Shown: positions 17,877-18,680 of the stretch, piece by piece
How the letters are laid out: each line of letters begins with the position of its first letter
Position numbering within the stretch: position 1 is the first letter of the stretch
Assembly (NCBI GenBank): GCA_964016885.1
Contig: OZ024765.1
Span: 434,001 to 498,000, forward strand
Source of the DNA: Eledone cirrhosa
Taxonomy: Eukaryota
Reading direction: 5' to 3'
DNA length: 64,000 nucleotides
Translations under genes and position numbers: made by a program
Notes under the pieces: generated by a model
What the model was told of the DNA's origin: nothing
The model's database searches: none
The model's input: the letters and a program-made list of their open reading frames with translations, nothing else

Positions 17877-17996
17877 GTTTACAATTGTTTCGCTACTCCA
17901 TATAATATTTCTGGATCAGATGACTATATATCATAATTGATCTGGTTCAGTTGAAAATAATTAACATATTTAAAAAACAGAGTGGCTCATCGGAAC
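17877..17996 (-). ncRNA. HHR motif with extended stem II, downstream of the PLE coding remnant
   Basis: Minus strand reads GTT-CCGATGA-GCCACTC...GAGTAGC-GAAAC-AATT-GT-A/AAC. One core substitution. Palindromic ACAATTGT stem III. Confidence 0.7.
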
Positions 17997-18399
17997 TTCA
18001 ACGGAATATAAATTAAAATAATGGGATAATGTTACATAATATAATGTTCCATATATTGGTTTTTACTATGGTGTTTGCTTGCATCAGTTGTCAGCCATAA
18101 TCAAGCAGTATTCATCTGTCGAGGCTGCATTGTGTGAGATCTGCCTATGGGTAACAAGATGGCTGCCAAAGGGCATATTTACCTTACTAATTAGGGGGTG
18201 GTTTCAGGGGAAGTAACTTCTCGAGAGATTAGAGATTGTGAGCGTTTATAGTTAAGTTCTAGTTTTTAAATTTTTTAATTGAGAGACAATGTAGGGGAGG
18301 TAATTTATAATTATCGAGTTGTTCATAGCAATTTAACTTATTAGCTACAAGTAAAAATGGGGCTATATGACTAAGTTGGGTCAACAATTCTATTGGCGA

Positions 18400-18680
18400 A
18401 GGATTAGATCTTCGATGTTGAAAGCTAATGGTTACCTCCGTTCTATCGTTAATCGGTTGAGGTCGTGATAGAGTTATGTAATATGAGAATACAGAGATCA
18501 CAAGATTTTCTTCGTCCCTTGATCGGTTGGGCCCTAGCCACGATATCCCATTTTAGTGAGTGTTGAACGTTGTTTAATTTAAGGTTTTTAATGAGCCTAG
18601 CTAGCGATGTAGATGAGGATGTGGTGTTGAGCCAGGTGATATTTCTAGGTCTATTCCTTCTAGGGGTTCTAGTGGAGTTG
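18400..18680 (-). pseudogene. Decayed Penelope-like retroelement (Naiad-type) ORF: post-RT linker and GIY-YIG C-terminal region, internally deleted and frameshifted
   Basis: RPRNITWLN (compare RKRNIIWFNPP), then TSLARLIKNLKLNNVQHSLKWDIVARAQPIKGRRKSCDLC, then frameshifted YYITLSRPQPINDRTEVT..QHR. This resembles the T.LS.Y.W.LK...KW.I...A.P.....K.C.LC..EK..I.....LN.R.E....C.H pattern. Recognised from memory of the family. Confidence 0.8.

What the first reader, a model, noticed from the sequence alone, without database searches (positions are those of the whole stretch)
17877..18680. Penelope-like coding remnant physically linked to a downstream HHR
A Naiad-type PLE C-terminal fragment (RNITWLN...KWDIVARAQP...KSCDLC...INDRTE) lies on the minus strand. 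About 400 bp further 3' on the same strand is an HHR with a ~95-nt stem II and ACAATTGT stem III. This is in-window evidence tying the ribozymes to a PLE clade, and points to the likely type of autonomous partner.
Basis: partly seen in the sequence, partly recalled or inferred. Interest (0 to 1): 0.78.

Follow-up and report, generated by a model that had tools for sequence, protein, structure and literature searches.

The report
Hydra-type Penelope relic, long-armed hammerhead
This is a broken copy of an abundant jumping gene (a Hydra-type Penelope-like element, not a Naiad) with a hammerhead self-cutting RNA motif in what is likely its own tail, a known pairing; the unusual part is a 95-base second arm, shared by related copies, whose activity and likely purpose are untested.

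Summary
Real, but misclassified. The peptide is the C-terminal end of a Hydra-clade Penelope-like element (PLE) protein. Naiads have an N-terminal endonuclease and lack canonical hammerheads. This copy is dead: 5'-truncated at 18933, about 130 codons deleted at 18610/18611, frameshifted near 18486. A type I hammerhead motif (17880-17993; U4C core, 95-nt stem II domain, palindromic stem III) lies about 400 nt downstream. That is normal Hydra anatomy: 30 of 47 Hydra loci with enough flank carry one. Paralogous contigs tile ORF to hammerhead in 30 of 30 bins, but no listed piece spans it. The new part is the arm. The core-to-GAAA spacer is 10-27 nt in 38 Hydra loci, against 95 nt here. Two diverged paralogues span the whole motif, and an unrelated repeat at 45763-45871 has a 90-nt version. 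Rfam and my Hydra covariance model miss both. Activity is unshown, and this copy folds no better than shuffles. It does not identify a partner for the window's other ribozyme repeats. This scan noted a Hydra-PLE hammerhead before on other DNA. Modest new variant.

The parts
18934..18980 (.). (TA)n microsatellite at the 5' truncation point, the likely insertion target
   Evidence: Hydra elements insert in (TA)n; relatives continue differently beyond 18930-18933 in X1, X4, X8
18665..18933 (-). 5'-truncated start of the remnant: N/T/P-rich stretch after the RT thumb, about 70 codons longer than in other Hydra ORFs; broken by at least one frameshift (inferred)
   Evidence: 299 nt from 18933 to the W codon, against 24-34 aa from SG[YF] to W[FY]N in 22 Hydra ORFs; X4 contig covers 18686-18933 with 11 differences and 1 gap
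18611..18664 (-). Basic block plus RNITWLN, the Hydra post-thumb motif
   Evidence: matches Hydra rows of Craig et al. fig. S7, e.g. PRRNRQRNIIWYNPP; frame
18610..18611 (-). In-frame internal deletion of about 130 codons (removes the CxCX5C linker, the GIY-YIG motif and the R/H residues)
   Evidence: W-to-TSLA distance 8 aa here against 133-145 aa in 26 of 26 Hydra ORFs; loose ends on both sides at 18603-18613 in all 4 runs
18464..18610 (-). C-terminal half of the Hydra GIY-YIG-type endonuclease (TSLA...KW...CxxC); frameshift near 18486, where relatives carry 1-4 extra bases
   Evidence: insertion rows 18485-18487
18371..18463 (-). End of the endonuclease (N and CxH region, INDRTE) in another frame; the Cys codon is changed in this copy only; stop inferred at about 18371-18392
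   Evidence: position 18422 differs in essentially all relatives
18007..18370 (-). 3' UTR between ORF end and hammerhead
   Evidence: covered by overlapping paralogous contigs in X1 and by reads in X10; lower depth at 18232-18271
17874..18006 (-). Type I hammerhead motif: stem I (17996-17994 with 17879-17877; bulge 18002-17997; 18005-18003 with 17876-17874), core 17993-17987 with U4C, GAA 17891-17889, palindromic stem III 17888-17881, predicted cut after GUA at 17880
17892..17986 (-). 95-nt stem II domain: 8-9-bp basal helix, inner hairpin, and an unpaired stretch (17955-17950) complementary to the stem I bulge
   Evidence: spanned by X1 records 1 and 2
17752..17873 (-). (ATT)n run and a 90-nt repeated tail ending at (TA)n; probably the element's 3' end, but the link across the ATT run is not shown
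   Evidence: 17752-17831 is the deepest part in X1, and the tool skipped 17841-17876

Best explanation
This is a dead, 5'-truncated and internally deleted copy of an abundant Hydra-clade Penelope-like retrotransposon, with a type I hammerhead motif in what is likely its own 3' UTR and a 95-nt stem II that related copies share and that likely folded as part of a working ribozyme in the active family. Shown: clade-diagnostic motifs, domain order, the lesions, the hammerhead motif, many paralogues, and the long arm in paralogues. Inferred from established PLE biology: full-length copies encoded RT plus a C-terminal endonuclease and inserted by target-primed reverse transcription into (TA)n. In tandem transcripts the hammerhead would cut after GUA (17880), probably as a dimer through the palindromic ACAAUUGU stem III, trimming the RNA near the element's 3' end. 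Inferred, weaker: the long arm is a tolerated or selected extension capped on a normal basal helix; a short pairing between the stem I bulge and an unpaired stretch of the arm may stand in for the usual loop I/loop II contact. This particular copy is probably a poor or dead ribozyme (U4C, competing fold).
For: Hydra homology. The 7 longest reference ORFs fetched carry Hydra motifs: DKT, CxCX5C and YRDD in 7 of 7; RWK, CxxC..E and N..CxH in 6 of 7. Loose ends at 18610 (translated by hand) continue as NLATNI on one side and SFR...S on the other, the blocks that flank the deleted part in published Hydra proteins. A sense-strand hammerhead follows the ORF in 30 of 47 Hydra loci with >=350 nt of flank, in 38 of all 80, and antisense in 1 of 80, at 71-530 nt; here about 400 nt. 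In one search, 1656 X1 contigs cover 30 of 30 bins, and depth is higher over the hammerhead than over the ORF in X1 and X4. X1 records 1 and 2 span the whole motif with 19-21 differences and 2-3 gaps. One X4 contig (another organism label) ends in an intact CUGAAGA core with a different 5' strand of stem II that pairs better with the 3' strand, at nearly the same spacer length (read by hand from one loose end). The stem III self-duplex is 8 bp, -8.4 kcal/mol. A U4C hammerhead is known to keep enough activity for viroid infectivity (PMC3088659).
Against: No listed contig or read spans ORF to hammerhead, and depth dips at 18232-18271. The window's motif folds no better than shuffles on its own strand (z 0.34 and -0.18), and better on the opposite strand (z -2.19). 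The active fold costs about 10 kcal/mol against the MFE. Position 17992 (U4) is not among the 40 of 135 differences that one search listed, so U4C may be common in the family and not private. Evidence for paired changes in stem II rests on one contig end and one partial substitution (17983). No Pfam hit for the remnant or for reference Hydra ORFs. No close protein relative in 3 of 3 word-indexed searches. No cleavage or expression data.
Confidence: 0.7

Rival explanations
1. Same Hydra element, but the long arm is a neutral insertion that hitch-hiked in a family whose hammerhead was already weak or dead; PLEs can spread without a working hammerhead.
For: U4C core; 17992 not among the listed differences; no folding signal on the ribozyme strand; Naiads proliferate without canonical hammerheads, and Craig et al. 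allow that hammerheads may merely parasitize PLEs.
Against: Basal helix, GAAAC, stem III and stem I are all retained. An X4 relative has an intact core and better pairing at similar length. A second, unrelated repeat has an intact core with a 34-pair, 90-nt rod that favours the ribozyme strand (z -2.64 against -0.70).
Confidence: 0.18
2. The hammerhead belongs to a separate, more abundant non-autonomous repeat (retrozyme-like) that merely sits next to the Hydra fragment.
For: Depth over the hammerhead is several-fold above that over the ORF in X1 and X4; no spanning piece; dip at 18232-18271.
Against: No microsatellite or long repeat lies between them. Same strand and a normal distance. X1 contigs carry 39-59 letters on each side of variants at 18219-18262, so they bridge the dip. 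Only 4 minor joints were listed. 5' truncation predicts the same depth gradient.
Confidence: 0.06
3. The arm holds a retained spliceosomal intron (GT at 17978 or 17965, AG at 17912), as PLE pseudo-LTRs sometimes do, and splicing would restore a short stem II.
For: GT and AG dinucleotides are present; an intron abuts the D. virilis Penelope hammerhead (PMC4209133).
Against: Donor contexts are poor. No joint that skips this part was listed in 4 runs, none of them on record as RNA. The 45.8-kb arm is a continuous hairpin.
Confidence: 0.03
4. One reading: a Naiad fragment marking the autonomous partner of the window's ribozyme repeats.
For: Naiads occur as remnants in cephalopods and insert in (TA)n.
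Against: The endonuclease here is C-terminal and Hydra-type; Naiads lack canonical hammerheads; no sequence link to the other hammerhead repeats.
Confidence: 0.02

Closest known systems
Hydra-clade PLEs (Craig et al. 2021, PMC8557442), e.g. Hydra-2_Amil, Hydra-1_Ajap, Hydra-1_Obim
   Same: C-terminal endonuclease without CCHH, with CxxC before E and CxH after N; post-thumb W[FY]N block; (TA)n target; type I hammerhead with palindromic stem III in the 3' UTR
   Different: Stem II domain of 95 nt, against short stems and loops in the Hydra rows of File S2 and 10-27 nt in 38 loci; longer 3' UTR; about 70 extra codons after the thumb; hammerhead and UTR differ from Hydra-1_Obim by eye; the stem III 11-mer has 0 hits in the supplement text
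Minimal and type I hammerheads of metazoan PLE pseudo-LTRs (Cervera and de la Pena 2014, PMC4209133)
   Same: Type I topology, short stem I next to the core, palindromic stem III predicted to act as a dimer, many dispersed truncated copies
   Different: Helix II there is 6-8 bp; here the domain is 95 nt and branched, and the core has U4C
Naiad PLEs (PMC8557442)
   Same: PLE superfamily; (TA)n insertion; present in cephalopods
   Different: N-terminal endonuclease with CCHH; no canonical hammerhead; none of the motifs seen here
Non-LTR retrozymes (PMC7229834; bioRxiv 10.64898/2026.07.22.740005)
   Same: Type I hammerhead, derived from or mobilised by PLEs
   Different: Retrozymes are non-coding tandem units of about 300 nt; this hammerhead is single and colinear with a PLE ORF remnant

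Membership tests
Hydra-clade PLE | Endonuclease C-terminal to RT | tested here: met
   post-thumb block, then EN end, then UTR; the RT core itself lies beyond the truncation
Hydra-clade PLE | CxxC and CxH around the conserved E and N | tested here: met
   CDLC in the window; the CxH Cys is changed in this copy but present in relatives (position 18422); E is lost at the frameshift here
Hydra-clade PLE | CxCX5C linker and absence of CCHH in the GIY-YIG core | not testable with these tools
   region deleted in this copy; only 30-nt loose ends of relatives were shown
Hydra-clade PLE | RWK and DKT motifs; RT phylogeny | not testable with these tools
   RT absent from the window; no genome held; no close full-length relative found
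Hydra-clade PLE | Hammerhead near the 3' end | tested here: met
   atypical stem II length and U4C
Hydra-clade PLE | Insertion into (TA)n | tested here: met
   (TA)n at 18934 and at 17751
Naiad PLE | N-terminal GIY-YIG endonuclease, C-terminal RT | tested here: not met
   EN end is followed by stop and UTR
Naiad PLE | No canonical hammerhead | tested here: not met
   full three-stem motif present; definition
Type I hammerhead ribozyme | Core CUGANGA / GAAA / UH | tested here: inconclusive
   all positions match except U4C; an X4 relative has CUGAAGA; state of the family consensus unknown
Type I hammerhead ribozyme | Three stems closing on the core, open stem I | tested here: met
   constrained fold, although it is not the MFE
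Type I hammerhead ribozyme | Match to Rfam or to a clade covariance model | tested here: not met
   0 gathering hits; no hammerhead family among 33 hits at E<=10 in 17400-18100; not among 12 hits of model R1, whose 47 positions probably cannot take a 95-nt arm
Type I hammerhead ribozyme | Self-cleavage after the UH triplet | not testable with these tools
   needs a bench assay
Non-LTR retrozyme | Tandem non-coding units, each with a hammerhead | tested here: not met
   single copy, no second copy in the window, coding remnant in cis

The most novel reading that the evidence does not exclude
PLEs of this host lineage carry a distinct long-arm class of hammerhead with a 90-95-nt stem II domain, kept in at least two unrelated repeat families. 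The arm is a working module: it docks on the stem I bulge by a short pseudoknot in place of the loop I/loop II contact, or gates cleavage or RT binding. Standard descriptors and covariance models miss such ribozymes, so PLE hammerheads are undercounted, and some 'half-core' or 'hammerhead-less' PLE families may hide them.
Probability: 0.25. Interest if true: 0.6.

Novelty: new variant of a known kind. Interest (0 to 1): 0.32.

Why it matters
The PLE-hammerhead link (2014) and hammerheads in Hydra-clade PLEs, including an octopus family (2021), are published, so the linkage itself is ordinary. What could matter is the natural 90-95-nt stem II, three to four times the longest seen in 38 Hydra loci here, in two unrelated repeats of one 64-kb window. 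If these cleave, they widen the known natural architecture of the hammerhead and show that current searches miss a class. A high-copy family would also give hundreds of natural variants with which to test by covariation whether PLE hammerheads are under selection, which is still an open question.

Tried and rejected
No whole genome is held for this window, so no genome-wide copy alignment was possible. Pfam gave nothing for 3 window peptides and nothing relevant for 3 reference Hydra proteins, so Pfam is blind to this clade. Three word-indexed protein searches found no relative. A metagenome scan with the window peptide confirmed 0 of 597 candidates. Viral contigs: 0 matches for the hammerhead 3' motif and 0 of 63 candidates for the Hydra profile. 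Sequencing-run search: no RNA holder listed; this says nothing about expression. Rfam hits at 17400-18100 are microsatellite artefacts. A relaxed rescan of 19 Hydra loci without a hit (spacer up to 160 nt) gave one doubtful 28-nt case and no long arm. Aligning the two long-arm hammerheads showed likeness mainly at the core, stem III and AT-rich positions, and blastn finds none, so they are treated as separate families. The 14-fold motif enrichment was rejected as hammerhead evidence because it comes mostly from SINE tails. The idea that the upstream 300 nt is RT thumb was dropped: relatives continue past 18933 with an SGY-type block (by hand), which places it after the thumb. My notebook's stop position (18392-18390) was revised to about 18371-18392 after noting a one-base difference at 18402 in relatives. 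Literature: 9 searches listed no paper on long-stem-II PLE hammerheads, judged from listings and the passages read. Lunse et al. 2017 and Arkhipova et al. 2017 were not held and may describe such variants.

Full report
Setting. The window is AT-rich (GC 0.18-0.35 per 2 kb) and full of (TA)n, (CA)n and (GA)n tracts. It looks like an octopus-type animal genome; that is a recalled resemblance and no call names the host. No whole genome was available.

The peptide. One minus-strand frame (18449-18853) reads ...PRRNRPRNITWLNTTSSSTSLARLIKNLKLNNVQHSLKWDIVARAQPIKGRRKSCDLC. INDRTE and the following QH lie in another frame. A phmmer search of 1.84 billion proteins with 67 residues gave 15 hits at E<=1e-3. 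Fourteen end in the same STELSK...KW...ARA.PY...C..C..E...LN.R.E...C.H block and one is an unrelated repeat protein. The same block and the upstream RNIIW[FY]NPP block are the Hydra rows of fig. S7 in Craig et al. 2021 (PMC8557442; I saw passages, sections 6 and 11, and supplement parts 1, 2, 52, 53, 58 and two term searches). That paper defines Hydra as C-terminal-EN PLEs without CCHH, with CxxC and CxH around E and N, canonical hammerheads and (TA)n targets. It defines Naiads as N-terminal-EN PLEs that lack canonical hammerheads. The remnant is therefore Hydra-type and not Naiad.

Reference set. A scan of metagenome contigs with a Hydra alignment returned 80 loci (83 confirmed of 211 candidates). 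Their 7 ORFs of 580 aa or more carry DKT, CxCX5C and YRDD (7 of 7) and RWK, CxxC..E and N..CxH (6 of 7). A profile of 23 of these ORFs hits the window only at 18464-18622 (iE 6.5e-09) and weakly at 18626-18679 (iE 1.4).

Lesions of this copy. The distance from W to TELS is 133-145 aa in 26 of 26 reference ORFs and 8 aa here: an in-frame deletion of about 130 codons at 18610/18611 that removes the linker and the GIY-YIG core. Laying four public runs on 17752-18935 at 80% likeness showed loose ends at 18603-18613 in all four runs. Translated by hand, they continue as NLATNI on the upstream side and SFR...S on the downstream side, which is what published Hydra proteins have there. Other copies thus hold the missing part. 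Relatives also carry 1-4 more bases near 18486 and a Cys codon at 18422, and they run on past 18933, where this copy meets (TA)n. The copy is 5'-truncated and dead.

The hammerhead motif. On the same strand: stem I GUU/AAC, a 6-nt bulge and UCC/GGA; core CCGAUGA (17993-17987, U4C); a 95-nt spacer closed by an 8-9-bp helix; GAA; palindromic ACAAUUGU; and a GUA cut site at 17880. A strict descriptor, written after the fact, finds this and one other motif in the window, against a mean of 0.013 in 300 shuffles of the microsatellite-stripped sequence. Against activity: the region folds no better than shuffles on the ribozyme strand (z 0.34 and -0.18) and better on the other strand (z -2.19), and the active fold is -11.0 against an MFE of -21.2 kcal/mol. 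The competing fold uses G18002, a base that essentially all relatives lack. U4C lowers activity in vitro but was tolerated in a viroid (PMC3088659; passages and section 8). One search listed 40 of 135 differences and 17992 is not among them, so I cannot say whether U4C is private; it may be common in the family. Rfam and a covariance model built from 19 Hydra hammerheads do not report the motif.

Is it in cis? In the reference loci a sense-strand hammerhead follows the ORF in 30 of 47 loci with at least 350 nt of flank (38 of all 80; antisense in 1 of 80), 71-530 nt after the match. Many of these loci are near-duplicates. The window's distance of about 400 nt is inside that range, at its upper end. 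In one search, 1656 contigs of run X1 and 9262 reads of run X10 cover 30 of 30 bins; X4 covers 26 and X8 27 (other organism labels). No listed piece spans the whole stretch and depth dips at 18232-18271, but X1 contigs extend 39-59 letters on both sides of variants within the dip, and only four minor joints were listed. Depth is higher over the hammerhead than over the ORF in X1 and X4, as 5' truncation predicts; the tool warns that depth is not copy number. I take the hammerhead to be the element's own 3' UTR motif.

What is unusual. A relaxed rescan of 19 loci without a hit found no long one. The Hydra rows of File S2 are all short; the longest rows, from spike-moss elements of another clade, are about 50 nt. 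Here the spacer is 95 nt, and it is not a quirk of one copy: X1 records 1 and 2 span the whole motif with 19-21 differences and 2-3 gaps. One X4 contig ends in an intact CUGAAGA core followed by a different 5' strand that pairs better with the shared 3' strand, at almost the same length (read by hand, one contig). A second motif at 45871-45763 has an intact core, the same stem III and a 90-nt, 34-pair rod that favours the ribozyme strand (z -2.64 against -0.70). It sits in a (TA)n-flanked piece with 47-nt inverted arms, the inverted-end layout described for PLEs, and has no blastn likeness to the first. The stem I bulge of the first motif is complementary over 6 nt to 17955-17950 in the arm. 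Chance is 0.03 for 6 nt and 0.21 for the 5 nt that survive the relatives' change at 18002, so this is only a hint.

Mechanism. From established PLE biology (PMC4209133, parts 1-2 of 4; PMC6765202, passages): the RT-endonuclease inserts copies at microsatellites, most copies are 5'-truncated, and hammerheads with short palindromic stem III cut weakly and as dimers in tandem transcripts. The 8-bp self-duplex of stem III here (-8.4 kcal/mol) fits that. Cleavage, expression and any role of the arm are untested.

The partner claim. It names only the parent of its own hammerhead. The other motifs (45.8 kb, 23.8 kb, 17.5 kb, 39.9 kb, the 5.5-kb family) are probably ends of other PLE families, but none has coding sequence in the window. 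Retrozymes as PLE derivatives are already in print (PMC7229834, passages; bioRxiv 10.64898/2026.07.22.740005, part 1 of 5 and passages).

Verdict. A real PLE remnant with its hammerhead in cis; clade misnamed; the pairing known. The long stem II did not turn up in 9 literature searches, but two key papers were not held, and supplements of the bioRxiv preprint and of the 2014 paper were not seen. New variant of a known kind; interest 0.32.

Noticed in passing
window 45709-46040, minus strand (motif 45871-45763): Second long-arm hammerhead: intact CUGACGA core, 90-nt rod-like stem II, same palindromic stem III, flanked by 47-nt inverted arms and (TA)n; no coding sequence; unrelated in sequence to the 17.9-kb family. 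A better candidate for an active ribozyme than the finding itself.
   Followed up: partly
window +5495-5547, +33480-33529 / -33815-33868, 39032-39195, 49404-49543, 18931-19017: Short-arm hammerhead-like repeat family with a large stem III loop, in several copies. One fragment abuts the 5' end of the Hydra remnant in opposite orientation; the 33.5-kb copy has an inverted junction at the core.
   Followed up: partly
window -23835..23792, -17499..17461, +39870..39927, -53654..53603: Further hammerhead-like motifs with spacers of about 24-38 nt, some with core changes.
   Followed up: no
window e.g. +8974, -10098, +14426, +34961, -52645, tandem 80-nt units at 3837-4077: A tRNA-like SINE family (label by eye) ends in an 11-mer nearly identical to the hammerhead's GAAAC-stem III, followed by (TAT)n. 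Probably coincidence, but it inflates motif counts and could hint at a PLE-derived tail.
   Followed up: partly
window 18665-18933, minus strand: The family has about 70 extra N/T/P-rich codons between the RT thumb and the W[FY]N block compared with 22 Hydra ORFs; also present in a contig of run X4.
   Followed up: partly
window 17752-17840: A 90-nt repeat after the (ATT)n run is the deepest part in run X1 and nearly absent in run X8; either the element's tail or a separate repeat.
   Followed up: no
L010, L022, L031, L036, L038, L039, L045: Long, apparently intact Hydra-clade ORFs (586-723 aa) in metagenome contigs; the two scanned (L031, L022) have no relevant Pfam hit.
   Followed up: partly
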